A DNA stretch of 33,624 bases from Chloroflexota bacterium. GTDB taxonomy: Bacteria; Chloroflexota; JAJPGV01. Below the pieces are notes generated by a model. That model did no database searches. It was not told the origin of the DNA and saw only the letters and a list, made by a program, of their open reading frames with translations. A program made the translations under genes and the position numbers. Below are positions 1,484 through 22,184 of the stretch, one piece after another. The DNA lies in contig DAIUFO010000002.1 in NCBI GenBank assembly GCA_036844545.1, positions 1-33,624 of the forward strand, in the 5' to 3' direction. Each line of letters starts with the position of its first letter. The stretch's first letter is position 1.

Positions 1484-1718
1484 CGACTTTCACCATTGCT
1501 CTCAAGCTCTCTGTGGAGGACCGGCCGCCGAACAACAAAGAGAGCCAGGGAGCCAATGCCACTGCAGCTCTCTCCCGCCATCGTTGTAGCCGACCGCTGG
1601 CTTCTAGTCAAGCCGCCGCACCGGCCGGCTGTGCTTCCCGCGGCGCCGTCCGCCGGTTGGCGTCTACCGACGATGGAGGCGCGGCCGCTTGTGGTCTACC
1701 CCACCGGGGATCGAGCCT

Positions 1719-1742
1719 CTAAATTCAGACCTCTGGACATTG
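1719..1742. repeat. Left terminal inverted repeat of the IS
   Basis: Matches the reverse complement of 4118-4141 at 23 of 24 positions. Confidence 0.7.
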
Positions 1743-1815
1743 AGCTTGGCCGACTAGTCAGTAATTAGTGGTGCGATTAGCTGGCGTTTGGAGCTGAACT
1801 CTGCTAGACTGGTGA

Positions 1816-7479: not shown

Positions 7480-7498
7480 CAATCTGAGCCTTCGACTC

Positions 7499-8434
7499 GT
7501 GCCGGCGCCCCCGCGCGACCCACGACATTTCTCACCCATATTCGTGCTGGCCACGGCCCGGTCGTTCTCCTCCGTGGTCACAGCGATGATCGGCCAGCAC
7601 CCGGACCTTGTTGGTCTTCCGGAGTTGAAGCTCTTCTGCTGCCGGACCATCGGAGAATTGGAGGCGTCGCTACCTCGGTACTGGATCGAGCGGGGAGTCA
7701 CCCACCGAAGTCCGGGATTGGTGCGTGCGGTAGCGGAAGTGGTGTTTGCCGACCAAGACCTTAACTCGCTAAACCGGGCTCTAGACTGGTTGCGGGACAG
7801 GCCCCACTGGTCCGGAGCAGACGTTCTCGACGTGCTGCTGGCCCGCTTGAGCCCGCGCACCGCCGTGGAGAAATCGCCCGACAATGTGTCCACCGACGCC
7901 TCTCTCGCGCGGATGGCCTCGGCCTACCCTGAGGCCCGCTACCTGCACCTCGCGCGACACCCCGTGAGCACGCAGCGCTCCATGCAGGAACATTGGGCCC
8001 GAACCGTACCTGCGTATTCCCTGGACAGTGAACCAATGTCGAGTATCTCCGCTTGGTATGACGTCAACTGCCGGATATTTCTTTTTGGCAGCGGGCTGCC
8101 ACCTGGCCGCTACATGCGTGTCAGGGGAGAGGATGTTCTCAACGACAGCGAGTCGCAGCTGCGAGCCATCGCGTCCTGGCTGGGGCTCCCTGCCGATCAC
8201 GGCGCTATTGAAGCCATGATGCACCCTGAAACGTCGCCGTTCGCGCGCTTCGGGCCGGTCGGCAGCGGGGTCGCCGGCGGGAACGATCCCAGATTTCTGT
8301 CCGATCCGGTACCCCATGGCGTGGCGCTGCCAGACACGCTGGAGCAGCCCCCAGGCTGGATAGGCGCATCCCTGTGGTCGATGGTGGTCGATCTGGCCTG
8401 TGCGCTCGGTTACCGTGACGAACGGACCACTTGA
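7499..8434 (+). CDS. Sulfotransferase-family protein
   Basis: PIFVLATARSFSSVV resembles the 5'-phosphosulfate-binding loop. ARYLHLARHPVSTQRS resembles the 3'-phosphate-binding RxPxD/S motif of PAPS-dependent sulfotransferases. The ORF track opens at 7442, overlapping the radical SAM stop. GTG 7499 is the first start after that stop, so the exact start is uncertain. Confidence 0.7.
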   Translation: MPAPPRDPRHFSPIFVLATARSFSSVVTAMIGQHPDLVGLPELKLFCCRTIGELEASLPRYWIERGVTHRSPGLVRAVAEVVFADQDLNSLNRALDWLRDRPHWSGADVLDVLLARLSPRTAVEKSPDNVSTDASLARMASAYPEARYLHLARHPVSTQRSMQEHWARTVPAYSLDSEPMSSISAWYDVNCRIFLFGSGLPPGRYMRVRGEDVLNDSESQLRAIASWLGLPADHGAIEAMMHPETSPFARFGPVGSGVAGGNDPRFLSDPVPHGVALPDTLEQPPGWIGASLWSMVVDLACALGYRDERTT

Positions 8435-8793: not shown

Positions 8794-10365
8794 GTGACCC
8801 CAGTCACGTATCCGGGCGTGTACATCGAGGAGCTGCCGAGCGGCGTCCGTACGATCACCGGCGTCTCGACATCCACCACGGCCTTCGTGGGGCGGGCGCG
8901 CAAGGGCCCTGTCGATATCCCGGTCGAGATCCACAGCTTCGGCGAATTCGACAGCATCTTTGGCGGTCTCTGGGACCAAGGTCCCATGAGCTTCTCCGTG
9001 CAGCAGTATTTCCTCAACGGCGGCCAGACCGCGGTCATAGTCCGCGTGGTGCATGGCGCGACGGCGACAGCGACGCGCTTCTCGATACCAGGTGGCGCCG
9101 GCGACCTGCTGCTGGACTCGTCCAGTCCGGGCGACTGGAGCAAGAATCTCCAGATAGCTATCGACACCAACACTTCGGATTCCGCCAATTTGTTCAATAT
9201 CACGGTGAGCGATCCGGGACCGCCCGCCGGCACCGGGTCCGGAGCATCCGAGATCATACGCAACCTCTCAGCCGACGTGACGTCGTCCCGCTTCCTCACG
9301 CCCATCCTGGCGCAGCAGTCCCGCTTCGTGCGCGTCGCGCCGGTAGCCGGCGCCATCCACAAACCAGATCCGACGGCCGTCGGGGCGCCTATCACATCGA
9401 CGTCGGCCGGCAGTGTGGCCGGGGGCGACGGCGACGCTATCCAGGATGCGGACGTCAACGATGCCGCCGGGCCTATCGGCAAGCACGGCATGTACGCTCT
9501 GGAGGATCAGGATATCTTCAACATCCTGGTCCTCTCGCCGCTGGACTTCGGCGCGGACGTCCAGGCTGGGACGTGGTCAGCCGCCGCGGGCTACTGTCGT
9601 GACCGGCGCGCCTTTCTCATCGTCGACCCGCCGGACGGGACCATCACGCCGCCCGCTACCGCCGCCAACAGTGGCTTCGCCGCACTCGCCGCGACCCTGG
9701 CGCCAAGCAGTCTGGAGGCTCAGTACGCGGCGTACTACTTTCCGCGCGTCATGGCCACCAACCCCCTTACCAGGGTCCCGCAGGAGTTTGCTCCTTCAGG
9801 CGCCATCGCCGGCATCTTCGCGCGCACCGACAGTGCGCGAGGTGTCTGGAAGGCGCCGGCTGGGCTCGAAGCCGGCATCAGTGGCATCCTGGACCTGGCG
9901 TACAACCTGACCGACGGCGAGAACGGCGTCCTCAACCCGCTCGGCGTCAATTGTCTGCGCACCTTCAACCTGATGGGCTCGGTCGTTTGGGGATCGAGGA
10001 CGGTGCAGGGCAACGATGCGTTGGCCAGCGACTGGAAGTACATTCCCGTACGCCGTCTCGCACTGTACATCGAAGAGAGCCTCTTCCGGGGGACGCAATG
10101 GGTGGTGTTCGAGCCCAACGACGAGCCCTTGTGGGCGCAGATACGCCTCAACGTCGGCGCTTTCATGCAGAACCTTTTCCGCCAGGGCGCCTTCCAAGGC
10201 AAGACGCCGCGCGACGCCTATTTCGTTAAGTGCGACGCCGAGACCACGACCCAGAACGATATCAACCTCGGCGTCGTCAACATTCTGGTCGGCTTCGCGC
10301 CGTTGAAGCCCGCCGAGTTCGTCGTGATCAAGATCCAACAGATGGCCGGCCAGGTCCAGGCTTAG
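8794..10365 (+). CDS. cis2: Contractile tail sheath protein (eCIS Cis2 / Afp2-4 equivalent)
   Basis: The N-terminus TYPGVYIEELPSGVRTITGVSTSTTAFVG and the C-terminal GVNCLRTFNLMGSVVWGSRT...KYIPVRRL are classic phage/eCIS tail sheath signatures. 523 aa. Strong SD. Confidence 0.95.
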   Translation: MTPVTYPGVYIEELPSGVRTITGVSTSTTAFVGRARKGPVDIPVEIHSFGEFDSIFGGLWDQGPMSFSVQQYFLNGGQTAVIVRVVHGATATATRFSIPGGAGDLLLDSSSPGDWSKNLQIAIDTNTSDSANLFNITVSDPGPPAGTGSGASEIIRNLSADVTSSRFLTPILAQQSRFVRVAPVAGAIHKPDPTAVGAPITSTSAGSVAGGDGDAIQDADVNDAAGPIGKHGMYALEDQDIFNILVLSPLDFGADVQAGTWSAAAGYCRDRRAFLIVDPPDGTITPPATAANSGFAALAATLAPSSLEAQYAAYYFPRVMATNPLTRVPQEFAPSGAIAGIFARTDSARGVWKAPAGLEAGISGILDLAYNLTDGENGVLNPLGVNCLRTFNLMGSVVWGSRTVQGNDALASDWKYIPVRRLALYIEESLFRGTQWVVFEPNDEPLWAQIRLNVGAFMQNLFRQGAFQGKTPRDAYFVKCDAETTTQNDINLGVVNILVGFAPLKPAEFVVIKIQQMAGQVQA

Positions 10366-10387: not shown

Positions 10388-10912
10388 ATGGCCCAGTTCA
10401 GCGTGAACCCTCAGCGCTTCGACCCCTACCAGAACTTCAAGTTCCGCGTCAAATGGGACGGCCGCTACGTCGCCGGGGTCAGCAAGGTGAGCGCCCTTAA
10501 GCGCACCACCGAGGTCGTCGAGCATCGCGAAGGCGGCGACCCGAGCACCGGCCGCAAGTCGCCCGGCCGCAGCAAATACGAGGCGATCACCATAGAGCGC
10601 GGCGTGACCCACGACACGGAGTTCGAGAAGTGGGCCAACAAGGTCTGGAACTTCGGCGCCGGGCTTGGCGCGGAAGTCTCCCTCAAAGACTTCCGCAAGG
10701 ACATCATCATCGACGTCTACAACGAAGCCGGCCAGCTCGCGCTGGCCTACAAGGTCTTCCGCTGCTGGGTGTCCGAGTTTCAGACCATCCCAGACCTGGA
10801 CGCCAACGCCAACGCCGTCGCCATCCAGCACATCAAGCTGGAAAACGAAGGTTGGGAGCGCGACGAGGCCGTCATCGAGCCCACGGAACCCAGCTTCACC
10901 ATCCCGGCATAA
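10388..10912 (+). CDS. cis1: Tail tube protein (T4 gp19-type; eCIS Cis1 / Afp1 equivalent)
   Basis: FDPYQNFKFRVKWDGRYVAGVSKVSALKRTTEVVEHREGGD...YEAITIERGVTHD matches the conserved phage tail region (tube) family. GAGGAGG at 10369-10375 precedes ATG 10388. Confidence 0.9.
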   Translation: MAQFSVNPQRFDPYQNFKFRVKWDGRYVAGVSKVSALKRTTEVVEHREGGDPSTGRKSPGRSKYEAITIERGVTHDTEFEKWANKVWNFGAGLGAEVSLKDFRKDIIIDVYNEAGQLALAYKVFRCWVSEFQTIPDLDANANAVAIQHIKLENEGWERDEAVIEPTEPSFTIPA

Positions 10913-11672: not shown

Positions 11673-12305
11673 ATGGCAGATGTCGCGCGTCCCCGGATCG
11701 AGCCGCTGTTCGCTAACGAGTCACGCGTGCAAGGGGACGCCGTCCCGAATGGCGCAGACGTAGACCTCGAGCTGCCCGCTGGGCCCTTGCCTCGGCCGGC
11801 GCGCCCGCGCAGCGCGCAGGCAGCGCCGCCGCGGCCGCTCGTATCGTCACTGGCCAGCGATGCCATGGAAGCACCCCTCGCGCCGGCCCGCCTTCATGTG
11901 AGGCCGCGGCGAGATGAACAGGCCCTTACGAGCGCGCGCGCCACCAGCCCGCTTGCAGCGGACGTCAGCAATCCTCGAGAATCGCGCCCGGGCTCGGAAC
12001 GGCACGAGTGGTTGCGGCCGGCGGGGGACGGACGCGAGAGCGACAACGCCAGCTTTGCCGCTCGCCCGACGCCGCTTGCATCCGACCACAATCCGCGAGC
12101 GGCCGGCGAGTCGCGGCCCGACCCCGGCCGGCAGGAGCGCCGGATGCAGGCCACCGCGCCACAACCGAGCGTTCGCGTCACGATCGGCCGCGTCGAGGTG
12201 CGGGCGGTCTTCCCGGCGCCGACGGCAGCGACTAGCCAGCCTCGACGCAGTCCCGAGCTTACGCTCGAAGACTACGTCAAACAGCGCAGCGAGGGACGGC
12301 GATGA
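11673..12305 (+). CDS. Low-complexity Pro/Ala/Arg-rich protein with an ordered C-terminal motif; candidate tape-measure-slot (Cis14-like) protein
   Basis: 210 aa from ATG 11673, mostly disordered-looking. It ends in VRVTIGRVEVRAVFPAP...LTLEDYVKQRS. The frame is open upstream to 11538 and encodes LTADFLSRLAERTLDG from CTG 11625, which overlaps the upstream stop as CTGA. There is no SD before ATG 11673, so the true start may be 11625. Confidence 0.6.
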   Translation: MADVARPRIEPLFANESRVQGDAVPNGADVDLELPAGPLPRPARPRSAQAAPPRPLVSSLASDAMEAPLAPARLHVRPRRDEQALTSARATSPLAADVSNPRESRPGSERHEWLRPAGDGRESDNASFAARPTPLASDHNPRAAGESRPDPGRQERRMQATAPQPSVRVTIGRVEVRAVFPAPTAATSQPRRSPELTLEDYVKQRSEGRR

Positions 12306-13522
12306 GCAACTTCCTCGCCATCGCCACCGTGACGGAGACGGTTCGCCAGCTCCTGCAAGCGGCGGTCGACGTGGATCTGCCAGGCACGACGGTGACGATG
12401 GCGCGGCCAGCGGACGACACCGTCGGGCCACAGGGCCCGCGCGTCAATGTCTTTCTCTACCGCGTCACACCCAACGCTGGCCTGCGCAACAACGACCTGC
12501 CAACGCGCCGCCCCGACGGCCAGCTGGAGGAGCGGCCCCAGACGGCGATCGACCTGCACTACCTGTTCAGCTTCTTTGGCGACGAGAGCCAGCTCGAGCC
12601 GCAGCGATTGCTCGGCACGGTCGTCCGCACGTTGCACGGCCAGCCGGTGCTGACGCGACAGACGATCGCCAGCGCCCTGGCCAGCACCACCTTCGGCTTT
12701 CTGGCCAGCTCTGATCTGGCAACGCAGCCCGAGCTGGTGAAGTTCACCCCGGCGGCGCTGTCGCTCGACGACCTGTCCAAGCTGTGGTCCGTCTTCTTCC
12801 AAGCGCCATTCGTGCTGTCCGTGACCTACGGGGCGACCGTTGTCCTCATCGAAGGCGGCGAAACACCCATGGCGGCGCTCCCGGTTCAGCGGCGCAACCT
12901 GCGCGTCCTGCCCTTCCGCCAGCCGTTCATCGAACGGGTGCTTGCCCAGGGCGGCCCCTCCGTGCCCATTGTCGCCGGCAGTGTGCTGTTGATCCGAGGG
13001 CAGCGGCTGCAGGGCGACGTCACCCTGGTGCGCCTCGCCGGCAGCCTGCTCACACCCGATTCCGTGACCGATACGGTTGTTTCGCTGACGCTCAGCGAGC
13101 CACCGCTGCCGGCGGGCGCGCTGCGTGCCGGGGTGCAAGGCGTCCAGATCGTGCAGCAGGTCCTTTTTGGCACCGCGGCCGATCCCCACCCCGGCTTCGA
13201 GTCAAACGTTGCGCCGTTCGTGATACACCCGTCCGTGACCGCGGTCGGTCTCGCCGGCAGTCTGGTCACGGTCAATGTCGACCCACCGGTGCGGGCCCGA
13301 CAGCGCGTCTCGTTGCTTCTGAACGAGCGCCTAGGAGCGCCGCCAGCGGCGCTGGTCTTCGCCACGCCGCCGCAGCCAGCCGACACCGCCGCGCCAGGGT
13401 TCACTGTCAGCGGCGTCGCGCCGGGCGAGTACTTCGTGCGACTCCAAGTTGATGGCGCCGAAAGCCCTGTCGATCTCGACCCGGCAAGCGCGCAATTCGG
13501 CCCAACGCTGACGTTCCCATGA
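12302..13522 (+). CDS. cis16: DUF4255 (Pvc16_N) protein, tail terminator/cap (Cis16 / Afp16 equivalent)
   Basis: MSNFLAIATVTETVRQLLQ...VNVFLYRVTPNAGLRNNDLP...IDLHYLFSFFG matches the DUF4255 N-terminal domain typical of eCIS loci. ATGA overlap with the upstream stop. Confidence 0.85.
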   Translation: MSNFLAIATVTETVRQLLQAAVDVDLPGTTVTMARPADDTVGPQGPRVNVFLYRVTPNAGLRNNDLPTRRPDGQLEERPQTAIDLHYLFSFFGDESQLEPQRLLGTVVRTLHGQPVLTRQTIASALASTTFGFLASSDLATQPELVKFTPAALSLDDLSKLWSVFFQAPFVLSVTYGATVVLIEGGETPMAALPVQRRNLRVLPFRQPFIERVLAQGGPSVPIVAGSVLLIRGQRLQGDVTLVRLAGSLLTPDSVTDTVVSLTLSEPPLPAGALRAGVQGVQIVQQVLFGTAADPHPGFESNVAPFVIHPSVTAVGLAGSLVTVNVDPPVRARQRVSLLLNERLGAPPAALVFATPPQPADTAAPGFTVSGVAPGEYFVRLQVDGAESPVDLDPASAQFGPTLTFP

Positions 13523-15486
13523 GCCTCCAGGCGGCGGCTGTGGAAACCTGGCAGGAGGCCAATAAACGCCACCTGGTGGCGGCGCTGGCAGGCGTCAAGA
13601 ATGCTCTCGAGCGCCACGCCGCTGGCGAGCCAACGCCGATCCTGACGGGCGCCCTGCCGGAGGCCGCGGGCGCCATTTCGCCGCCGCCGGCGCTCGATCG
13701 GCTGTGCACTGCCTTCAGCCTGACCCCGTTTGAGCGCGATGTCCTGCTGCTGTGCGCCGGCATCGAGCTCGAGTCCGGCTTTGGGTCGTTATGCGCGGCG
13801 GCTCAAGGCGATCCCCAGCGCGGCCAGCCGACCTTCAGCCTGGCTCTGGCAGCATTGCCGGACGCACACTGGAGCGCTCTGTCGCCGAGCGCGCCACTTC
13901 GCTACTGGCGTCTCATAGAGGTTGGCGCAGGCAGCACGCTGACGCTCAGCCCACTCCGCATCGATGAACGCGTGCTGCATTACCTGGCCGGCGTGCAGCA
14001 TATGGACGAGCGGCTTGCCGGCATCGTCGAAAGCGTGACGCCGGCCGAGGCTCTGCTGTCGCGGTCGCAACGCCAGGTCGCGGCGCTCGTGGCGGCAGTC
14101 TGGCGGCGAGGCCGAAGCTCAGGCCTCATCTCCTGTATTCAGCTGTGCGGCCCAGAGAGCGGAAGCAAGCGTGCGGTGGCGGCAGCCGCGTGCGCCGCCT
14201 CAGGGCTGAACCTGGCGGCCATTGCCGCCAGCAGCCTGCCAACGACGCCACACGAACTGGACGGCCTGATCCGCTTGTGGCTGCGCGAGGCAGCGCTCGA
14301 GGGCTGTGCGCTGTTGCTCGAGTGCGATGGCCTGGACTTCGCCGACGCAGCGCGCTCCGAAGCCGTGCGGCGCGTGATCGAGCAGGTCCATTCGGCGCTG
14401 ATTATCTCGAGTCGGGAGCGCCGGCCGGATGAGCCGCGGGGGCTGGTTACGTTCGAGGTCGGGCGGCCAGCCTCGAACGAGCAGGCCGACATGTGGCGGC
14501 AGGCCCTGGCGGAGACTGCGTGCGCGCCTGGGACGATCGAGGCGCTGGTATCCCAATTCAGCCTCGGCGCGCCCGCTATCAACGCCATTTGCGCCCAGGC
14601 GCTTGACCCCGACAAGAGCACAGCCGACATTCCCAAACGCTTGTGGGATGGCTGTCGCAGCCAGGCTCGGCCGCGGATGGAGGGCCTGGCGCGGCGCATC
14701 GAGCCTTCCGCAACCTGGGATGATCTTGTCCTGCCGGAGGCTCAGCTCCGTACGCTGCGCGAGGTAGCGGTGCACGTCCGGCAGCGAGCCAGAGTGTACG
14801 AGCAGTGGGGCTTCGCGGCCCGCTATGCCCGCGGCCTCGGCATCTGCCTGCTCGCTGCCGGCCCCAGCGGCACCGGCAAGACCATGGCCGCAGAGGTGCT
14901 GGCTAACGACCTGCAGCTCGACCTGTACCACATCGACCTGAGCCAGGTGGTCAGCAAATACATCGGCGAGACAGAAAAGAACTTGAGCCGCCTTTTCGAC
15001 GGCGCGGAGAGCGGGGCCGGCATCCTGCTGTTCGATGAGGCCGACGCGCTGTTCGGCAGGCGCACCGAGGTTAAGGACAGCCACGACCGCTACGCCAACA
15101 TCGAGATCAGCTATCTGCTACAGCGCGTGGAAGCGTATCGCGGCCTGGCCATCCTGACCACCAACATGAAAGACGCCCTGGACGCGGCATTCCTGCGGCG
15201 CATCCGGTTCGTCGTGCAGTTTCCATTTCCAGACGTGGCGCTGCGCACGCAGATATGGCGGCGCATCTTCCCCGGGCCCACGCCCACCCAAGACCTGGAC
15301 ATCGATCGACTGGCCCGCCTCAACCTCTCGGGCGGCAACATCCGCAACGTCGCCATGGGCGCGGCGTTCCTGGCGGCGGAAGCCGGCGCCGCGGTGGGTA
15401 TGCGGCACCTGGCCGTGGCCGCGCGGAGCGAGTACGCCAAGCTCGAAAAGCCGCTCAGCGAAGTCGAGATCGGGGGCTGGGTATGA
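13519..15486 (+). CDS. cis15: AAA+ ATPase (Cis15 / Afp15 / Pvc15 equivalent)
   Basis: Walker A GPSGTGKT at 14860-14883. Walker B ILLFDEAD at 15022-15045. A single C-terminal AAA+ module follows a ~400-aa N-terminal region, the architecture of eCIS ATPases. Confidence 0.9.
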
Positions 15487-15734
15487 ACATCGAGCTGCAC
15501 ATCGAGGAGCTGGTACTGCAGGGTTTCTCACACTCTCATCGGGGGGCAATTGGTCGGGCGATTGAAACGGAGCTGTCGCGGCTGCTGACCGACCGCGGCC
15601 TGCCCGCGTCCCTTTCCGGCGGCCGAGACGTGCGATCGCTCGATGCCGGCTCCTTTGTTGTGGAGCATGGCGCCCGCCCCAGCGCCATCGGAGCCCACGT
15701 GGGGCAGCTGCTTTACGAGGGGATGACCCGATGA
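15483..15734 (+). CDS. Small protein (83 aa) of unknown function, translationally coupled at both ends
   Basis: ATG 15483 overlaps the ATPase stop (ATGA). Its own stop overlaps ATG 15731 (ATGA). Product: [83 protein letters not shown]. In the ORF track it is hidden inside the 15255-15734 entry. Confidence 0.6.
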   Translation: MNIELHIEELVLQGFSHSHRGAIGRAIETELSRLLTDRGLPASLSGGRDVRSLDAGSFVVEHGARPSAIGAHVGQLLYEGMTR

Positions 15735-17653
15735 GCAGCTTCGTTCCTCTTGCCGTCAAACGCACCGCTGCGCCATCGTTCACGGCGGTCCGTGAGGGCA
15801 CCATTCAGCGCTGCGCCGCGGCGCCCTGTTCCGTGTGTTCCGCGCAAGAAGACGAGCAGTCGGTGATGCGCCAGCGCGCCTTCGTTTCCGGCGAGCCGCC
15901 GACGGTCCCAGCCATCGTCCGCGACGTCCTGCGATCACGCGGGCAGCCGCTGGACGCCGCCACGCGCGCCTTGTTCGAGCCGCGCTTCGGTCACGACTTC
16001 AGCGGCGTCCGCATCCACGCGGATGAGACGGCGGCGCGTGCGGCGGACGCCATCGGCGCGACCGCGTTCACGGTTGGCAGCTCGATCTCGTTTGGACGGG
16101 GCATGTATCAGCCGGGAACCGCGCCCGGACTGCAGCTCCTCGCCCACGAGCTGACACACACGGTCCAGCAGCGGGGCCGGATCGCCAGCGCGCAGCCGAG
16201 CCTCCGGGTGGGGGCAGCGAACGATGCCGCGGAGTCCACCGCCGAGCGGGTGGCCAACGCCGTGCTCGCCGGCCAGTCGATCCCGCGGATCGGCGCGACC
16301 GGCGCGATCATCCGCCGCAAGCCAAAGGTCTCGCCCGTCGCCAACGATCCGTCGCTGCGCATCGTCGAGATGGACAACGGGACTCGTTACCGCGTCAAGC
16401 GAACCGTCGAGTGGGTAAAGACGACGACCAAGCACTCCGGTGCGACCACCAAGTTCGGCGGAGACATCGACAAAGACAACGTCTGGATCCAGGTCGACCA
16501 CTGTGACGGCACGGGCGAGGTGAAGGTCAAGGTCGGCGCGAACATCCCCGCCGCCGCGCAGGATGTTCTGAAGAAAGCCGGCCAGGCAATCGTTGGTGGG
16601 GCCGACCCGGTTACGGCGCTCAAGGGTATCAAGCTCGAGCCGTTTGTGTCGGTCATCGTTGCCCAGTCTAAGAAGAGCAGCGTCACAGTGACTGGCAAGG
16701 TCACGACCGATATCGACAAGGGAAAAGTGACCGGCGGCGCCGCCGGCGTCACGGTAAAGGTGCCGGGCGCGGACTTCTCCCTGGAGGGAAAGATCGAGCA
16801 GGCGCCGCCAGGCCAAAAGCGTCCCAACTTCCAGGTGGGCGGCGTGGTAACCATCCCCCTTGGCAGTGGGCCGCCGAAGGTGGAGTGCCCTTCCTTCGAG
16901 CGGACCACCCAGGAGCCGCGGGTGAGCTACCAGTGCGAAAAGATTGTGCCCGAGCACGAGGAGGAGCGCACGCGCCCGGTCACTCGCAGCCAGACTCAGA
17001 GCTTCTACTTCAAATACGCAAGAAACGAGTTTGCAAAAAAGGGCCGCACTGCCGATCTCGACAACAACGCGAAGGCGGCTGTGACGGCGGCCTTGAAAGA
17101 CGGCTACAGGATCGTCTCAATCAGCGGCTACGCCTCGCCCGAAGGTCCCATGCCTCGGAAGACAAAGGGCTTTGAGGGCAACGAGGCGCTTTCGGCGGAC
17201 CGCGCAAAGGCAGCGGAAGACTGGGTCAAGACCGTCTGTCCGCCGCCTACAGCCCTGAGCATGCGGCCCAGCTGTTTCGCGGACGAATACCGAAGAGGCG
17301 AGCAGCATGAGCTTTATGGGAAGAAGAAAAACGAGCAAGGCGCGGAGGTGGGGCCGGAGCTCGAGGGCAAGGAACTCGAGACGTTCGCGGTGGGGCAGTT
17401 CGAGACGGAGGAAGCCGAGAAATCGCGGCGCACGCCGGACGTCATGGATGAACTGGCGAAGGGCAAGACGCCGGAGCGCCAAAAGGACACCGTTTACCCG
17501 CTGCTGCGCCGCGCTGAGATTACGTTGAGCAAGCAAGAGACGGAGACATACAAAGAAACCGTCAAGGAATCCAGCACGCCGGAGAGCTGTCCCCAGGACG
17601 TCATGGACGCCGCTGATGAGGATTTCGGGCGCGAGCCCCTGGTGAAGAAATAG
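15731..17653 (+). CDS. DUF4157 (HExxH zincin-like) protein with Lys-rich beta-strand middle region, OmpA-like C-terminal signature and K/E-rich tail; candidate eCIS cargo
   Basis: RALFEPRFGHDFSGVRIHADETAARAADAIGATAFTVGSSISFG...LLAHELTHTVQQ is the DUF4157 signature, with HELTH at 16145-16159. FYFKYARNEF...LDNNAKAAVTAALKDGYRIVSISGYASPEG...GNEALSADRAKAAEDWV (about 16988-17245) resembles the OmpA/MotB C-terminal peptidoglycan-binding motif. Confidence 0.85.
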   Translation: MSSFVPLAVKRTAAPSFTAVREGTIQRCAAAPCSVCSAQEDEQSVMRQRAFVSGEPPTVPAIVRDVLRSRGQPLDAATRALFEPRFGHDFSGVRIHADETAARAADAIGATAFTVGSSISFGRGMYQPGTAPGLQLLAHELTHTVQQRGRIASAQPSLRVGAANDAAESTAERVANAVLAGQSIPRIGATGAIIRRKPKVSPVANDPSLRIVEMDNGTRYRVKRTVEWVKTTTKHSGATTKFGGDIDKDNVWIQVDHCDGTGEVKVKVGANIPAAAQDVLKKAGQAIVGGADPVTALKGIKLEPFVSVIVAQSKKSSVTVTGKVTTDIDKGKVTGGAAGVTVKVPGADFSLEGKIEQAPPGQKRPNFQVGGVVTIPLGSGPPKVECPSFERTTQEPRVSYQCEKIVPEHEEERTRPVTRSQTQSFYFKYARNEFAKKGRTADLDNNAKAAVTAALKDGYRIVSISGYASPEGPMPRKTKGFEGNEALSADRAKAAEDWVKTVCPPPTALSMRPSCFADEYRRGEQHELYGKKKNEQGAEVGPELEGKELETFAVGQFETEEAEKSRRTPDVMDELAKGKTPERQKDTVYPLLRRAEITLSKQETETYKETVKESSTPESCPQDVMDAADEDFGREPLVKK

Positions 17654-17662
17654 GCCATCGCG

Positions 17663-18841
17663 ATGCTGAACCTGTCAGACATCGAGCCGAAGCAGCGAAC
17701 CGCCTCGAAGCATCAGGACGAGCGATCGCGCCTGCGCGGACGCGCCTGGGACGCGGAGCCGGCACGCGGCACGCGGCCGATCGTCCGGGACGTCGTAAGC
17801 TCAGCCGGCCAGACGCTCGATCCGCTGGCGCGTGCCTTCTTCGAGTCCCGGTTGGGTCATCACTTCGGCCACGTCCGCGTCCACACCGACGCGCGGGCCG
17901 CGGCTACGGCGCGGGCGCTTCGAGCGCAAGCCTACACCGTCGGGCCAGACATCGCCTTCGACACCGGGCGATACACGCCGCGGACGGCCGCGGGCCTCCA
18001 CTTGCTCGCGCACGAGCTGACCCACATCGTCCAGCAGGGCGCCAGCGCCGAGGTTCAAACGCTGGGAATGGCCGCCGTCGACAGTGACTCGGAACGGGAG
18101 GCCGCCAGGACTGCGGACCTCGTCGTAAGCGGTGGCCAGGTAGGCGGTATCTCTGCCCAGGGGAACGACGGCGTGGTTCACCGCGCGATCGGGGACGTCC
18201 TTGCGGGCGGGGCTCTCGGCGGTATCGCCGGCGCGGCGATCGGCTCGATCTTCGGGCCGATCGGGGCCTTGATCGGTGGTGGAATTGGCCTGCTGGCGGG
18301 CCTGGCGGCGGGCGAGGTCGCCGGGGCCCAGCGCCGAGAACTGACTGGCGACGAGCGGCGCGAGGCAGCGATTGTGTTCGGGCCCAGCCTCAACATGTCA
18401 ACGGTCCACGTCGCGGAGTCTTCAGTCATGGCCGTCGGGGGCTTTGCGCGAACGCCTTTCGACACCATCTATTTCCCGCCGGGCACGTCACGGCTTGGCT
18501 TTCCCGAATTCATGCCCTGGCTCATCCACGAGCTCACGCACGTTTGGCAATACCAGCACGGCGTGTCCGTAACGGAGAAGGTGTGGTGGGCGCTGCACGG
18601 CCAGTCTGCCTACGACTACGGGGGCGAAGCGGGACTCCGCGCCGCTGCGAGCCAGAACAAGCGCTTTACCGAGTTCAATACCGAGCAGCAGGCATCGATC
18701 GCGGCGGACTTCTACAAGGCCCAGCACGCGGGGCAGGACACATCCGCGTACGACCCGTTTATCGCGCAGCTTCGCGCCGGCGGCCGCACGGCTGGGGCCA
18801 CGACTGGTCCAGCTTCGCCAGCCAGCGGGGGCGGACGGTGA
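17663..18841 (+). CDS. DUF4157 (HExxH) protein with glycine-zipper membrane segment and a second HExxH metallopeptidase-like domain; candidate eCIS cargo/toxin
   Basis: ARAFFESRLGHHFGHVRVHTDARAA...LLAHELTHIVQQ, with HELTH at 18011-18025. Glycine zipper GDVLAGGALGGIAGAAIGSIFGPIGALIGGGIGLLAGLAAGEVAG (about 18188-18325). The C-terminal domain carries WLIHELTHVWQYQHG, with HELTH at 18527-18541. Confidence 0.85.
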   Translation: MLNLSDIEPKQRTASKHQDERSRLRGRAWDAEPARGTRPIVRDVVSSAGQTLDPLARAFFESRLGHHFGHVRVHTDARAAATARALRAQAYTVGPDIAFDTGRYTPRTAAGLHLLAHELTHIVQQGASAEVQTLGMAAVDSDSEREAARTADLVVSGGQVGGISAQGNDGVVHRAIGDVLAGGALGGIAGAAIGSIFGPIGALIGGGIGLLAGLAAGEVAGAQRRELTGDERREAAIVFGPSLNMSTVHVAESSVMAVGGFARTPFDTIYFPPGTSRLGFPEFMPWLIHELTHVWQYQHGVSVTEKVWWALHGQSAYDYGGEAGLRAAASQNKRFTEFNTEQQASIAADFYKAQHAGQDTSAYDPFIAQLRAGGRTAGATTGPASPASGGGR

Positions 18842-18851
18842 GGGCAAGAAG

Positions 18852-19508
18852 GTGAGTGGCTTCCCGGGCTCGCCGCGGCTCGTCAAGGGCGGACTGGTCC
18901 TGATTGACCCCGACACGTCCGCGGTGCAACGGGTCATCTCGCTGCAATACAACCCGGACTCGCTCAGCCGATCGTTCCAGATCAAGGCCTTTGCCGGCGA
19001 CGCGGGCGACCGCTCGGAAGCGCTGCGACTCAAGGGCCCGCCCGTGGAGTCGATCAAGCTCGACGCCGCGATCGATGCCACGGATCAGCTCGAGATCTCG
19101 GATCAGAATCCGAACGCCACGCAGTTCGGCATCTTGCCGCAGCTCGCCGCGCTGGAGACCATCGTCTACCCCAGCAGCAGCCAGCTCCTGGCGAACAACG
19201 CGCTGGCGCAGTCCGGGACGCTCGAGATCGTGCCGATGGAGACGCCCCTCACGCTGTTCGTTTGGAGCAAGAGCCGCATCCTGCCAGTGCGTCTAACGGA
19301 CTTCTCGATTACCGAGGAGGCGTTCGACCCGGCCCTGAACCCGATCCGCGCCAAGGTGAGTTTGGGCATGCGGGTCCTCACCGTGGACGACCTGCCCTTC
19401 TCGCACAAGGGCAGCAGCCTGTTCATGCATTACCTGCAGGCTAAGGAGCAGCTCGCGGCCAAGAGCTCGGGCCTGATCAACACGCTCGGAATAGGGGGCA
19501 TCCCATGA
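18852..19508 (+). CDS. Tube-fold baseplate/tube-initiator protein (Cis5 / Afp5-like)
   Basis: VISLQYNPDSLSRSF...LTLFVWSKSRILPVRLTDFSITEEAFDPALNPIRAKVSLGMRVL follows the FQFNPE...WG...PV.I.S.SI.E..F...L.P..A.V.L pattern of contractile-injection-system tube-like proteins. GTG start after GAAGG. Confidence 0.7.
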   Translation: MSGFPGSPRLVKGGLVLIDPDTSAVQRVISLQYNPDSLSRSFQIKAFAGDAGDRSEALRLKGPPVESIKLDAAIDATDQLEISDQNPNATQFGILPQLAALETIVYPSSSQLLANNALAQSGTLEIVPMETPLTLFVWSKSRILPVRLTDFSITEEAFDPALNPIRAKVSLGMRVLTVDDLPFSHKGSSLFMHYLQAKEQLAAKSSGLINTLGIGGIP

Positions 19509-20990: not shown

Positions 20991-21502
20991 GCGAAGCCAA
21001 GAAGTTCTACGGCAAATATCGCAGCACGGTCGTGAACAACATCGATCCGCTGCAAATGGGCCGCCTCCAGGCGATCGTGCCCGACGTTTCGGCTGTGATG
21101 CTGACAAGTTGGGCGCTGCCCTGCCTGCCCGTCGGCGGCATTCAGACCGGCATCTTTTCGGTGCCGCCAATCGGCGCCGGGGTGTGGGTCGAGTTCGAAC
21201 AAGGCGACCCAGATTTCCCGATTTGGACCGGCTGCTTCTGGGGCTCAGCGGCAGAGGTCCCGGCCCTGGCGCACGCGGTGCCACCGGCCTTGTTCGGCAT
21301 CACCCTACAGACCCCGCTCCAGAACGGCATCGTCATCAGCGACGTCCCGGGCCCGACCGGCGGGATCATGCTCAAGAGCACCACCGGCGCCACCATCATT
21401 GTCAACGACACTGGCATCTACATACAGAACGGCAAGGGCGCGTCCATCATCATGACCGGTCCCACCGTCACCATAAACCAGGGCGCGATGGTGATCACCT
21501 GA
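20987..21502 (+). CDS. cis8: Baseplate spike protein (P2 gpV / gp5 OB-fold / VgrG-like; Cis8)
   Basis: YGKYRSTVVNNIDPLQMGRLQAIVPDV...WALPCLPVGG...GIFSVPPIGAGVWVEFEQGDPDFPIWTGCFW matches the Phage_base_V / gp5 N-terminal OB-fold family. Confidence 0.9.
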   Translation: MSEAKKFYGKYRSTVVNNIDPLQMGRLQAIVPDVSAVMLTSWALPCLPVGGIQTGIFSVPPIGAGVWVEFEQGDPDFPIWTGCFWGSAAEVPALAHAVPPALFGITLQTPLQNGIVISDVPGPTGGIMLKSTTGATIIVNDTGIYIQNGKGASIIMTGPTVTINQGAMVIT

Positions 21503-21819
21503 TGCCGGGCTTCGCCGTCCACCTGGGCGCCGTGGTGACGTGCATGCACGGCGGGCAGGCGCAGCCCGCGGCGCCCAATCCGCGCGTCCTCGTCAGCGGC
21601 CAGCCCGTGTCCACACTGGCCAGCCCTTACGTCGTGGCCGGCTGTCCCTTCGTCCCGCCAGCCGCTGGACCCTGCGTCTCGGCCCAGTGGGTGTCGGGAG
21701 CGACCCGCGTCTTCGTTGGCGGAGCGCCGCTGGTAGTTCAAAGCAGCCAGGCAGTGTGCGTGCCAACCGGCACCGGACTGCTGGTGATCGCTACTCAGAC
21801 CCGGGTGCTGGCTACATGA
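21502..21819 (+). CDS. PAAR-like spike-tip protein (Cis10 position)
   Basis: 105 aa, beta-rich, four spaced Cys (CMHGG, AGCPF, GPCVSAQW, AVCVP). It lies immediately after the spike gene (TGATG junction). There is no literal PAAR tripeptide repeat, so it is closer to the DUF4280/DUF4150-type PAAR-like proteins. In the ORF track it is hidden at the end of the 20848-21819 entry. Confidence 0.6.
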   Translation: MPGFAVHLGAVVTCMHGGQAQPAAPNPRVLVSGQPVSTLASPYVVAGCPFVPPAAGPCVSAQWVSGATRVFVGGAPLVVQSSQAVCVPTGTGLLVIATQTRVLAT

Positions 21820-22184
21820 CCCAGGTCGATTTTCCTTATCACTTCGACCACCGCGGCCGTACGGCTAGCCCCGACGACCAGGACGCGCACGTCCGCGACC
21901 TCATAGAGCAAGTCCTGTTCACGGCGCCGGGCGAGCGCGTGAACCGGCCCGACTTCGGCTGCGGTTTGATGCAGCTGGTCTTCCAACCCAACAGCGTGGA
22001 CCTAGCCGCCGCTACCGAATTCCTCGTTCAGAGCTCGCTGCAGCAGTGGCTGGGCGACCTGATCCTGGTCGAATCGGTTCAAGTCGAAGATGAGGACTCG
22101 ACGCTGCGGGTCACGCTGCAATACGTCGTGCGACGCACCGAGGCCAGATCGGTGGCGCAGTTCACCAGGGGCAGCACGACGTGA
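21816..22184 (+). CDS. cis9: GPW/gp25-family baseplate wedge protein (Cis9)
   Basis: AHVRDLIEQVLFTAPGERVNRPDFGCGLMQLVFQPN...LVQSSLQQW matches the gp25/gpW lysozyme-like baseplate family. ATGA overlap upstream. In the ORF track it is hidden inside 21540-22184. Confidence 0.85.
   Translation: MTQVDFPYHFDHRGRTASPDDQDAHVRDLIEQVLFTAPGERVNRPDFGCGLMQLVFQPNSVDLAAATEFLVQSSLQQWLGDLILVESVQVEDEDSTLRVTLQYVVRRTEARSVAQFTRGSTT

What the first reader, a model, noticed from the sequence alone, without database searches (positions are those of the whole stretch)
15483..18841. Cargo island inside the structural operon: a small ORF plus two DUF4157 paralogues with unrelated C-terminal payloads
Seen in the sequence: three ORFs with no tail-structural signature sit between the ATPase and the first baseplate gene. 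The two large ones share an ungapped, clearly homologous ~90-aa N-terminal module. In the first it reads IVRDVLRSRGQPLDAATRALFEPRFGHDFSGVRIHADE...LLAHELTHTVQQ at about 15908-16175. In the second it reads IVRDVVSSAGQTLDPLARAFFESRLGHHFGHVRVHTDA...LLAHELTHIVQQ at about 17774-18041. After that module the two proteins diverge completely.

Established knowledge: in Afp/PVC loci payload genes lie at the 3' end of the cluster. To my knowledge, comparative surveys reported DUF4157 as enriched next to eCIS and linked it to putative toxins.

Inference: a conserved DUF4157 head acting as a loading or adaptor module, with swappable effector tails, is encoded directly downstream of the loading ATPase. That would be a modular cargo system. 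The mechanism and target of such DUF4157 proteins are essentially uncharacterised.
Basis: partly seen in the sequence, partly recalled or inferred. Interest (0 to 1): 0.8.

Follow-up and report, generated by a model that had tools for sequence, protein, structure and literature searches.

The report
Toxin cargo genes inside injection-system operon
Two toxin-like cargo genes with a shared 'eCIS core' (DUF4157) head and different tails, plus a small conserved helper gene, occupy the usual cargo slot of a phage-tail-like injection system, so this is a new example of a published arrangement, not a new kind of system.

Summary
Three tightly packed + strand ORFs lie between the AAA+ ATPase and the CIS_tube gene: 15483-15734 (83 aa), 15731-17653 (640 aa, D1) and 17663-18841 (392 aa, D2). 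D1 and D2 are 48% identical over 158 aa (E 5e-29). Both carry PF13699, formerly DUF4157 and now named 'eCIS_core'.

Papers from 2021-2026 already describe DUF4157 heads with variable toxin tails, and the AlgoCIS cargo pair Cgo1/Cgo2 has been found inside the tube.

In 25 syntenic loci the same slot holds 1-7 DUF4157 genes with unrelated tails. Between the window and its closest sampled relative, the D2 tail is 77% identical but the head only 51%. That shows tail swapping directly.

- **D2 tail:** a glycine zipper plus a VgrG2b/Tpe1-type metallopeptidase (PDB 6H56, E 1.9e-24), a known periplasm-acting antibacterial toxin.
- **D1 tail:** a beta-rich domain plus a weak OmpA-like domain. Its family has 167 cluster representatives (one per 50%-identity cluster).
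- **Small ORF:** not cargo. It follows the ATPase in 23 of 25 syntenic loci.

AlgoCIS experiments assign loading to the disordered N-terminus, not to DUF4157. I rate this a new member of a known kind, of modest interest.

The parts
13519..15486 (+). AAA+ ATPase (WHD + AAA), a Pvc15/Alg15-type protein and the presumed cargo loader. It forms the upstream boundary of the cargo slot.
   Evidence: Pfam AAA 6.2e-25 and WHD 1.3e-19. It is syntenic in 25 loci.
15483..15734 (+). small83: a conserved 83-aa protein, translationally coupled to the ATPase and to D1 through ATGA overlaps. It is a lineage core gene of unknown function, not cargo.
   Evidence: Sequence. 12 homologues were found by protein search. 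Alignment A4 shows the motifs [14 protein letters not shown] and G.QIAQA.YGG. An HMM finds it right after the ATPase in 23 of 25 syntenic loci and in 32 loci overall. It has no Pfam, NCBIfam or PHROG hit.
15731..15910 (+). D1 N-terminal region (aa 1-60), predicted disordered. It carries a degenerate form of the motif LQR/CxC...CxxC...LQR (IQRCAAAPCSVCS...MRQRA) and is the candidate packaging signal.
   Evidence: AF2 pLDDT is below 50 for aa 1-56. For the motif statistics in slot proteins. The link to loading is by analogy with the Cgo1/2 N-terminus.
15911..16300 (+). D1 DUF4157/eCIS_core head (aa 61-190). It has the HExxH motif at H139-E140-H143 and a following helix with an invariant E168.
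   Evidence: PF13699 6.7e-31. Family invariants are in A2. It is 48% identical to the D2 head.
16301..17020 (+). D1 beta-rich domain (aa 191-430), about 13 long strands, with conserved Cys258, Cys386 and Cys402. Its fold is not assigned.
   Evidence: AF2 model with pLDDT about 75-90. Foldseek against the PDB gave no significant match. Family conservation is in A2.
17021..17653 (+). D1 C-terminal OmpA-like region (aa 431-640), with the motif GYASPEG...N..LS..RA...RRAEI interrupted by a long insertion. It is a putative peptidoglycan-binding module. The range includes the stop codon.
   Evidence: PF00691 scores below threshold: E 0.011, 16.5 bits against a 27.2 cut-off, at aa 440-498. 10 of 32 family members hit it, best 9.8e-4. 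PDB profile hits 6u83 and 8vvi are weak. The top three BFVD matches are phage OmpA-domain proteins, probability 0.98 but low TM-score.
17663..17776 (+). D2 N-terminal region (aa 1-38), predicted disordered. It aligns with part of the D1 N-terminal region (QDERSRLRGRAW against QEDEQSVMRQRAF).
   Evidence: AF2 pLDDT is below 50 for aa 1-36. See the BLASTP alignment.
17777..18172 (+). D2 DUF4157/eCIS_core head (aa 39-170), with HExxH at H117-E118-H121.
   Evidence: PF13699 2e-34. Invariants are in A1.
18185..18328 (+). D2 glycine-zipper hydrophobic segment (aa 175-222), possibly membrane-inserting.
   Evidence: Pfam Gly-zipper_YMGG 0.0017. It is modelled as two helices of low confidence. Weak, probably compositional, hits go to tape-measure and tail-lysin PHROGs and to crAss001 cargo protein gp45.
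18329..18841 (+). D2 C-terminal VgrG2b/Tpe1-type metallopeptidase domain (aa ~223-371, second HExxH at H289-E290-H293), followed by a short disordered tail and the stop codon.
   Evidence: The A1 profile hits PDB 6H56, 'Effector domain of P. aeruginosa VgrG2b', at E 1.9e-24. 6H56 is also the top Foldseek match, E 1.9e-4, probability 1.00, TMt 0.60. More than 100 full-length homologues exist.
18852..19508 (+). CIS_tube protein (tube-initiator-like), the downstream boundary of the cargo slot.
   Evidence: PF19266 3.1e-7. It is 43-83% identical in the syntenic loci.

Best explanation
[quoted passage not shown] It has three parts.

**1. small83.** This conserved 83-aa protein is co-translated with the AAA+ ATPase. 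I infer that it is an accessory factor of the ATPase or of loading.

**2. D1 and D2.** Both have the three-part effector layout already shown for AlgoCIS Cgo1/Cgo2: a disordered N-terminus, a DUF4157/eCIS_core zincin-like head, and a variable effector tail.

**3. Inferred mechanism, by analogy.** The ATPase recognises the disordered N-terminus, which is more alike within a locus than between loci. It threads the proteins into the tube lumen. Sheath contraction then expels them into a target cell.

**What the tails point to.** Both point to the bacterial cell envelope.
- The D2 tail is a glycine zipper plus a VgrG2b/Tpe1-type metallopeptidase. This family is toxic only in the periplasm, which would explain why no adjacent immunity gene is needed.
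- The D1 tail is a disulfide-prone beta-rich domain plus an OmpA-like, putatively peptidoglycan-binding domain.

**Shown here:** the domain identities, the conserved slot, the variable number of cargo genes and their unrelated tails, and the separate histories of head and tail.

**Inferred only:** packaging, delivery, the target, and the role of the DUF4157 head, which may be an accessory or processing peptidase, or a contact with the baseplate.
For: - **eCIS gene set and tight coupling:**. No + strand promoter- or terminator-like site lies inside the finding's coordinates, 15483-18841.
- **Domain hits:** PF13699 scores well above threshold in both proteins.
- **Disordered N-termini:** shown by the AF2 models.
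- **Slot survey:** 25 syntenic loci hold 1-7 DUF4157 ORFs in a slot of 1.5-12 kb. Their tails are diverse and toxin-like.
- **Family contexts:** D2-family members lie in the same slot at different positions. D1-family members lie in the slot (L086, L087), next to the ATPase in a differently arranged eCIS (L085), or just outside the operon (L001).
- **Separate head and tail histories:** D2 tail 77% against head 51% in L082.
- **Within-locus similarity:** N-termini have a median identity of 26.7% within a locus against 13.3% between loci. Heads are 46% against 36%. Tails are about 6% either way.
- **D2 tail identity:** 6H56 by profile and by fold.
- **Literature:**
  - Cgo1/Cgo2 sit in the tube lumen (PMC8894135).
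  - Loading depends on the N-terminus and on Alg15.
  - The VgrG2b C-terminal domain is toxic only in the periplasm (PMC6899460).
  - DUF4157 is a marker of eCIS toxins.
Against: - There is no experimental data for this locus. Packaging and toxicity are extrapolated from AlgoCIS, a clade Ib system in Bacteroidota.
- D2-family proteins are unusually well conserved over their full length (more than 100 clusters). That could point to a housekeeping role in the machine.
- VgrG2b-family toxins normally have an adjacent immunity gene, and none is seen here.
- The OmpA assignment for D1 is below threshold, and Foldseek against the PDB found nothing significant.
- Cgo1 toxicity did not depend on either of its HExxH motifs, so enzymatic roles are uncertain.
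- The surveyed loci were retrieved through the DUF4157 head, so loci with an empty slot were not sampled.
Confidence: 0.7

Rival explanations
1. Adaptor or structural role. One or both DUF4157 proteins, D2 especially, dock on the spike and tube-initiator complex as adaptors or tape-measure-like lumen proteins. They would not be free toxins. The models are Streptomyces Sle2 and Tme.
For: - D2 lies directly upstream of the CIS_tube gene.
- The D2 family is conserved over its full length in more than 100 clusters.
- Its glycine zipper weakly hits tape-measure and tail-lysin PHROGs.
- Sle2, a small DUF4157 protein, was tested for binding to the tube-initiator and spike proteins and binds the effector Sle1 (PMC13277306).
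- Tme co-purifies with baseplate proteins (PMC11126660).
Against: - A D2-type tail is present in only 2 of the 25 syntenic loci.
- It sits at variable positions in the slot: third of 4 DUF4157 genes, first of 2, fourth of 5.
- At 392 aa it is far shorter than Tme (2247 aa).
- Its tail is a bona fide toxin-family metallopeptidase with invariant catalytic residues.
- The tape-measure hits are confined to a low-complexity glycine-rich stretch.
Confidence: 0.12
2. The DUF4157 head itself is the loading signal or adaptor that the ATPase recognises, and the tails are passive payloads.
For: - A head is present in all 68 slot proteins.
- The genes always lie next to the ATPase, even in the rearranged locus L085.
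- Heads are somewhat more alike within a locus (46%) than between loci (36%).
- Danov et al. speculate that DUF4157 has a chaperone or recognition role.
Against: - In AlgoCIS, cargo lacking DUF4157 is still loaded, and cargo lacking the N-terminus is not.
- PVC and MAC cargos have no DUF4157.
- The HExxH is invariant across families. That suggests selection for catalysis or metal binding rather than mere recognition.
- The solved relative of the domain, the VgrG2b C-terminal domain, is itself the active toxin.
Confidence: 0.1
3. Self-lysis or release factors. D1 (wall-binding) and D2 (membrane-inserting glycine zipper plus a bacteriolytic periplasmic metallopeptidase) act on the producer's own envelope to release the particles.
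For: - Both tails are directed at the envelope.
- The window shows no recognisable holin or endolysin cassette.
- There is no immunity gene.
- Geller et al. raise the idea that eCIS toxins may contribute to lysis.
Against: - Neither protein has a Sec or Tat signal. Both have the disordered N-terminus typical of packaged cargo.
- The VgrG2b C-terminal domain is harmless in the cytoplasm.
- Slot content varies too much between close relatives for an essential release function.
Confidence: 0.06

Closest known systems
AlgoCIS cargo proteins Cgo1/Cgo2 (Algoriphagus machipongonensis; Xu et al. 2022, PMC8894135; PROCIS preprint 10.64898/2026.05.27.728243)
   Same: Both are two adjacent paralogues inside the eCIS cluster. 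Each has a disordered N-terminus that is similar within the pair, a DUF4157 domain and a different C-terminal domain. [quoted passage not shown]
   Different: AlgoCIS is a clade Ib system from Bacteroidota with a different gene order. D1's beta-rich plus OmpA-like tail has no counterpart in Cgo1/2. Nothing has been tested experimentally for the window's locus.
eCIS-associated toxins (EATs) carrying an N-terminal DUF4157 (Geller et al. 2021, PMC8213781; Danov et al. 2024, PMC11297309)
   Same: Both have an N-terminal DUF4157 (HExxH) fused to variable toxin domains and lie in or beside eCIS operons. Several such genes per locus are common.
   Different: Those surveys stress the 3' end of operons. 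Here, and in the 25 syntenic loci, the slot is mid-operon, between the ATPase with small83 and the CIS_tube gene.
VgrG2b C-terminal / Tpe1 metallopeptidase effectors of the T6SS (Wood et al. 2019, PMC6899460; PDB 6H56)
   Same: The D2 tail is homologous (profile E 1.9e-24, and the top fold match). It keeps the HExxH and the preceding glycine-rich segment. Family members are periplasm-acting bacteriolytic toxins.
   Different: The T6SS proteins are delivered as a VgrG or PAAR fusion or as T6SS cargo, with an adjacent periplasmic immunity gene (PA0261/Tpi1). D2 is fused behind an eCIS-type N-terminus and DUF4157 head, sits in an eCIS operon, and has no adjacent immunity gene.
Streptomyces DUF4157 proteins Tme (S. 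davawensis, PMC11126660) and Sle2 (S. lividans, PMC13277306)
   Same: These are DUF4157 proteins encoded next to tube-initiator or structural genes, with links to spike and baseplate proteins. Tme also has hydrophobic helices after the head.
   Different: Tme is 2247 aa with a tape-measure-like region and a nuclease domain. Sle2 is a small adaptor acting in trans. D1 and D2 are mid-sized and carry envelope-directed tails.

Membership tests
DUF4157/eCIS_core (PF13699) eCIS cargo / EAT class | PF13699 domain scoring above Pfam's gathering threshold | tested here: met
   D1 scores 106.7 bits and D2 118.1 bits against a cut-off of 22.
DUF4157/eCIS_core (PF13699) eCIS cargo / EAT class | Conserved HExxH motif in the domain | tested here: met
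   D1 has H139-E140-H143 and D2 has H117-E118-H121. These residues are invariant in A2, A1 and the 68-protein alignment A3.
DUF4157/eCIS_core (PF13699) eCIS cargo / EAT class | Encoded within or next to an eCIS cluster (sheath, tube, baseplate, AAA ATPase, Pvc16-type cap) | tested here: met
   Pfam annotation of the window and synteny with 25 loci.
DUF4157/eCIS_core (PF13699) eCIS cargo / EAT class | Three-part layout: disordered N-terminus, DUF4157, variable C-terminal domain | tested here: met
   AF2 pLDDT is below 50 for D1 aa 1-56 and D2 aa 1-36. The tails are unrelated to each other.
DUF4157/eCIS_core (PF13699) eCIS cargo / EAT class | Physically packaged in the tube lumen, with loading that depends on the ATPase and the N-terminus | not testable with these tools
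   This needs mass spectrometry or cryoET of particles. It is known only for Cgo1/2.
DUF4157/eCIS_core (PF13699) eCIS cargo / EAT class | Toxic when expressed in or delivered to a target cell | not testable with these tools
   This needs expression assays.
VgrG2b C-terminal / Tpe1 metallopeptidase effector family (D2 tail) | Sequence and fold homology to the solved effector domain 6H56 | tested here: met
   Profile hit at E 1.9e-24 over positions 203-371. Foldseek top hit at E 1.9e-4, probability 1.00, TMt 0.60.
VgrG2b C-terminal / Tpe1 metallopeptidase effector family (D2 tail) | Catalytic HExxH retained | tested here: met
   H289 and E290 are invariant and H293 is nearly invariant in A1.
VgrG2b C-terminal / Tpe1 metallopeptidase effector family (D2 tail) | Cognate envelope-targeted immunity gene immediately downstream (PA0261/Tpi1 type) | tested here: not met
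   The next gene, 10 nt downstream, is CIS_tube. In L082-L084 the neighbours are other DUF4157 genes. I did not search for a PA0261 homologue elsewhere in the genome.
VgrG2b C-terminal / Tpe1 metallopeptidase effector family (D2 tail) | Delivery by a T6SS, as a VgrG or PAAR fusion or as T6SS cargo | tested here: not met
   The locus is an eCIS with no T6SS membrane-complex genes in the window. The domain is fused behind an eCIS-type N-terminus and head.
OmpA-like peptidoglycan-binding domain, PF00691 (D1 C-terminus) | Pfam OmpA match above the gathering threshold | tested here: inconclusive
   D1 scores 16.5 bits against a cut-off of 27.2 (E 0.011, aa 440-498). 10 of 32 family members hit it, best 9.8e-4. 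PDB profile hits are weak, at E 0.12 and 0.35. The top BFVD structural matches are phage OmpA proteins, but with low TM-scores.
OmpA-like peptidoglycan-binding domain, PF00691 (D1 C-terminus) | Binding of peptidoglycan | not testable with these tools
   This needs a sacculus pull-down. The motif N..LS..RA with invariant R491 is present, but the usual TD motif reads SPE.
Tme-like tape-measure-related DUF4157 effectors (Nagakubo 2024) | Very long ORF with an N-terminal DUF4157, transmembrane helices and remote tape-measure homology, encoded just upstream of the tube initiator | tested here: not met
   D2 meets the position and N-terminal DUF4157 criteria, but it is 392 aa against 2247 aa for Tme. 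Its only tape-measure signal is a weak hit on the glycine zipper (PHROG_167, E 2e-4). Definition.

The most novel reading that the evidence does not exclude
The conserved 83-aa protein encoded right after the ATPase, present in 23 of 25 syntenic loci and not in Pfam, NCBIfam or PHROGs, is the missing cargo-selection adaptor of this eCIS lineage. It would read the short motif LQR(K)CxCG...CxxC...LQR, which sits at a fixed distance of about 15 residues before the DUF4157 head in most slot proteins from bacteria and one archaeon. It would then hand these proteins to the AAA+ ATPase. If so, cargo loading in this large, unstudied lineage rests on a conserved sequence signal rather than on a generic disordered N-terminus.
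Probability: 0.15. Interest if true: 0.6.

Novelty: new member of a known kind. Interest (0 to 1): 0.27.

Why it matters
The published framework already covers this locus: eCIS cargo with a disordered N-terminus, a DUF4157 domain and a variable tail. The locus adds two well-defined cargo families.
- **D2** shows that the VgrG2b/Tpe1 periplasmic metallopeptidase toxin is shared between T6SS and eCIS. That suggests this eCIS targets diderm bacteria.
- **D1** defines a family with 167 cluster representatives that has a beta-rich plus OmpA-like tail. The tail also occurs without the head, and its C-terminal part sits at the end of two-partner-secretion (TPS) exoproteins.

The comparative survey gives three practical leads for eCIS engineering and for the open question of what DUF4157 does.
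1. The mid-operon cargo slot is fixed in position, but its content turns over quickly.
2. Heads and tails have separate evolutionary histories.
3. A conserved small gene and a conserved N-terminal motif are candidate parts of the loading machinery.

None of these changes the current picture. All are testable refinements of it.

Tried and rejected
- **D1 fold.** Foldseek of the full D1 model against the PDB gave no match at E <= 0.001. The listed hits were low-probability pore-forming-toxin and outer-membrane-barrel entries. I do not assign a fold to aa 191-430.
- **Other libraries.** NCBIfam and PHROGs gave nothing for small83 or D1. Rfam gave nothing in the window.
- **Internal signals.** No + strand promoter or terminator lies inside 15483-18841, so I rejected an independently transcribed island.
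- **Foreign origin.** The low GC of the D1 tail (0.61-0.63) looked like recent acquisition. GC3 there (0.77-0.83) matches the neighbours (0.75-0.89), and the tail is rich in Lys and Glu, so I rejected this reading.
- **Third zinc ligand.** A Glu lies 25 residues after the second His and is invariant in A1 and A2. A simple motif search finds it at +20 to +28 in only about 30 of 69 slot proteins. This remains a conjecture.
- **Sampling limits.** It cannot give the frequency of D2-type cargo or of empty slots.
- **Cgo1 comparison.** I could not obtain the Cgo1 sequence, so D2-Cgo1 homology is untested.
- **Apparent gp25 fusion.** The 214-aa ORF at 21540-22184 is two genes in different frames, not a fusion.

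Full report
**1. Observation**

The window carries one + strand eCIS operon. Its genes, in order, are:
- sheath, 8794-10365
- gp19-type tube, 10388-10912
- two unassigned genes
- Pvc16_N cap, 12302-13522
- AAA+ ATPase, 13519-15486
- the three ORFs of the finding
- CIS_tube, 18852-19508
- a LysM-like gene
- a VgrG-related gene
- a VgrG-like OB-domain protein
- a PAAR-like gene
- gp25
- two Baseplate_J proteins
- a DUF6519 plus beta-helix protein

The three ORFs are small83 (15483-15734, 83 aa), D1 (15731-17653, 640 aa) and D2 (17663-18841, 392 aa). They are joined by ATGA overlaps or gaps of 9-10 nt. No + strand promoter- or terminator-like site lies inside 15483-18841.

D1 and D2 align at 48% identity over 158 aa, E 5e-29. 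The core from IVRDV to HELTHxVQQ has no gaps. The DNA repeats at a constant offset of 1866 nt. Both proteins contain PF13699, formerly DUF4157 and now named 'eCIS_core', far above threshold.

**2. What is already known**

- PF13699/DUF4157 was described in 2021 as an eCIS core domain with an HExxH motif. It lies N-terminal to many different toxin domains or next to toxin genes (PMC8213781).
- It is the strongest single predictor of eCIS toxins (PMC11297309).
- AlgoCIS encodes two adjacent paralogues, Cgo1 and Cgo2. They share a similar disordered N-terminus and a DUF4157 domain, and differ in their C-terminal domains. Both fill the tube lumen and are released on contraction (PMC8894135).
- A 2026 preprint shows that the N-terminus is required for loading and that DUF4157 and the C-terminal domain are dispensable. 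It names the AAA+ protein Alg15 as the mediator.
- In Streptomyces, the DUF4157 protein Tme co-purifies with baseplate proteins. The small DUF4157 protein Sle2 was tested for binding to spike-complex proteins and binds an effector in trans.

**3. Survey of related loci**

A genome scan seeded with the D2 family returned 80 loci containing DUF4157 heads. I mapped every window protein onto them with tblastn. Twenty-five loci share the window's gene order: sheath, tube, two unassigned genes, Pvc16, ATPase, slot, CIS_tube, LysM-like, VgrG-related, VgrG-like OB, gp25 and Baseplate_J x2.

In these loci the slot is 1.5-12 kb long and holds 1-7 ORFs with a DUF4157 head, of 218-1562 aa. All 68 slot proteins hit PF13699. 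Their tails hit OmpA (4), Aspzincin_M35 (3), Ntox44 (2), DUF6782 (2), annexin, VanY, DddA-like deaminase, Tox-REase-5, YkuD and WLM. Most hit nothing.

A D1-type tail occurs in 1 of the 25 loci and a D2-type tail in 2. The mid-operon position is therefore the lineage's regular cargo slot, not an inserted island. Its content turns over.

**4. Head and tail have separate histories**

L082 is the closest sampled relative, with structural proteins 64-85% identical to the window's. Its slot holds four DUF4157 genes plus one other ORF. It has no D1-type tail. Its D2 orthologue keeps the tail at 77% identity, but the head is only 51% identical. That is no closer than D2's head is to D1's head (50%) or to unrelated heads.

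Medians over all within-locus and between-locus pairs of slot proteins were:

| Region | Within a locus | Between loci |
|---|---|---|
| N-terminus (last 45 aa) | 26.7% | 13.3% |
| Head | 46% | 36% |
| Tail | about 6% | about 5% |

This is direct evidence for a locus-adapted N-terminus-plus-head module and freely exchanged tails.

**5. D2**

The D2 family has more than 100 full-length homologues of about 370-430 aa, 42-70% identical. Invariant residues lie in both HExxH motifs.

A profile of the family hits PDB 6H56, the effector domain of P. aeruginosa VgrG2b, at E 1.9e-24 over positions 203-371. The AF2 model (pLDDT 80) has 6H56 as its top structural match. VgrG2b-C/Tpe1 proteins are T6SS metallopeptidase toxins. 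They kill only from the periplasm and are neutralised by an adjacent periplasmic immunity protein. This domain is itself often annotated as DUF4157.

So D2 reads as N-terminus, eCIS_core head, glycine zipper and then a Tpe1-type metallopeptidase. It has two zincin-type modules, as reported for Cgo1. No immunity gene follows it. That fits a toxin that is harmless in the producer's cytoplasm, but it fails one membership criterion of the T6SS family.

D2 homologues in L082, L083 and L084 all lie in the slot, at different positions.

**6. D1**

About 35 full-length homologues were found. Invariant residues include two cysteines, with two more nearly invariant, and the motif GYASPEG...N..LS..RA...RR.

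The AF2 model (pLDDT 80) shows a disordered aa 1-56, the head, about 13 long beta strands (aa 193-427) and a C-terminal alpha/beta region. Evidence for an OmpA-like domain is consistent but below threshold:
- PF00691 at E 0.011 in D1, and hits in 10 of 32 family members.
- Weak PDB profile hits.
- The top three BFVD structural matches are phage OmpA-domain proteins.

An exhaustive search with the tail alone found 167 cluster representatives. Most start 190-300 residues into proteins of 600-720 aa, which fits an N-terminus plus head in front. Some proteins of 447-504 aa have no Pfam-detectable head. The C-terminal part of the tail also ends a TPS-domain protein and a YDG-repeat protein. D1 homologues lie in the same slot (L086, L087), after the ATPase in a rearranged eCIS (L085), or just upstream of an operon (L001).

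I read D1 as an envelope-directed effector, on the basis of the conserved cysteines and the OmpA-like motif. Its activity is unknown.

**7. The small ORF**

small83 belongs to a family of proteins of 83-113 aa with the motifs [14 protein letters not shown] and G.QIAQA.YGG. An HMM finds it directly after the ATPase in 23 of 25 syntenic loci and in 32 loci overall, including an archaeal one. It has no entry in Pfam, NCBIfam or PHROGs. It is a conserved core gene, not cargo. Its coupling to the ATPase suggests an accessory role in loading, but that is inference.

**8. N-terminal motif**

The N-terminal regions of slot proteins are not featureless.
- [LIVM]QR occurs in 49 of 66 N-terminal regions. 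The total is 89 occurrences, against 5.0 ± 2.0 in shuffled sequences.
- Its density is 1.45 per 100 aa in N-terminal regions, against 0.14 in tails.
- The last copy usually lies exactly 15 residues before the head.
- A CxC...CxxC pattern occurs in 26 of 66.

D1 keeps a degenerate copy (IQRC...CSVC...MRQRA). D2 keeps only RLRGRA. I found no description of this motif in the papers I read.

**9. Mechanism and rivals**

The most likely mechanism is ATPase-dependent loading, directed by the N-terminus, of D1 and D2 into the tube lumen, followed by expulsion on contraction and action on a bacterial envelope (confidence 0.7).

The rivals are:
- an adaptor or tape-measure-like structural role (0.12)
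- the head itself as the loading signal (0.10)
- a role in producer self-lysis (0.06)

The cargo reading therefore stands.

**10. Verdict**

This is a correct observation of an already described arrangement, and a new member of a known kind. The added value is specific:
- a Tpe1-type toxin on an eCIS chassis
- an OmpA-like cargo family
- a fixed mid-operon slot with fast turnover
- a conserved small gene and a conserved N-terminal motif as leads on the loading machinery

Noticed in passing
window 15483-15734, and the position directly after the ATPase in L002-L087 (e.g. L082 3492-3746, L083 7665-7961): An 83-113-aa protein family (motifs [14 protein letters not shown] and G.QIAQA.YGG) follows the eCIS ATPase in 23 of 25 syntenic loci. 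It is absent from Pfam, NCBIfam and PHROGs. The archaeal locus L008 has a second, partial copy inside the cargo slot at 7655-7834.
   Followed up: partly
N-terminal regions of DUF4157 slot proteins in L002-L081; window 15731-15910 and 17663-17776: The motif LQRKCACG...(GG)EC.EC.KK...LQR is shared across phyla, and its last LQR usually lies exactly 15 aa before the head. Long N-terminal regions also carry 'L.IG.P.D.YE.EADR.A..V', a helix motif that recurs after the head (D1 aa 165-178, D2 aa 142-155).
   Followed up: partly
window 5847-7479: The B12-binding and radical-SAM domains are split across two overlapping ORFs in different frames. The protein reads through a frameshift near 6300-6330, so this is a pseudogene or a sequencing error. 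A sulfotransferase gene follows at 7442-8434.
   Followed up: partly
window 21499-22184: The listed 214-aa ORF at 21540-22184 is not one gene. The true gp25 starts at the ATG near 21816 and is 81% identical to the L082 gp25. A PAAR-like (DUF4280-type) gene of about 105 aa lies in another frame at about 21499-21819.
   Followed up: yes
window 1816-4113: A DDE transposase gene (Transposase_29, E 2.3e-45) lies upstream of the eCIS locus. I did not look for terminal repeats or ask whether it bounds a mobile region.
   Followed up: no
window 11673-12305, and the equivalent gene in syntenic loci (e.g. L006, about 900-3253): In the gene before Pvc16, only the last ~50 residues are conserved between loci. 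The gap it fills between the g10969 and Pvc16 genes varies (about 0.6-0.8 kb in most loci, about 2.4 kb in L006). This is what one would expect of a tape-measure protein, but it has no family hit.
   Followed up: no
P0331 (1270 aa), P0340 (1386 aa), P0326 (2311 aa): The C-terminal OmpA-like part of the D1 tail also ends a TPS-domain (two-partner secretion) protein and a YDG-repeat protein. One 2311-aa protein carries three eCIS_core domains.
   Followed up: partly
L070 1687-13285 and L049 7727-14997 (both Hyphomicrobiales): These slots hold 7 and 4 DUF4157 genes whose N-terminal regions are nearly identical but of a different type (PKLRIGPANDPLEREADxVADAVVSNQ...IQRKCAACE). These are the only two syntenic loci with no detectable small83.
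   Followed up: no
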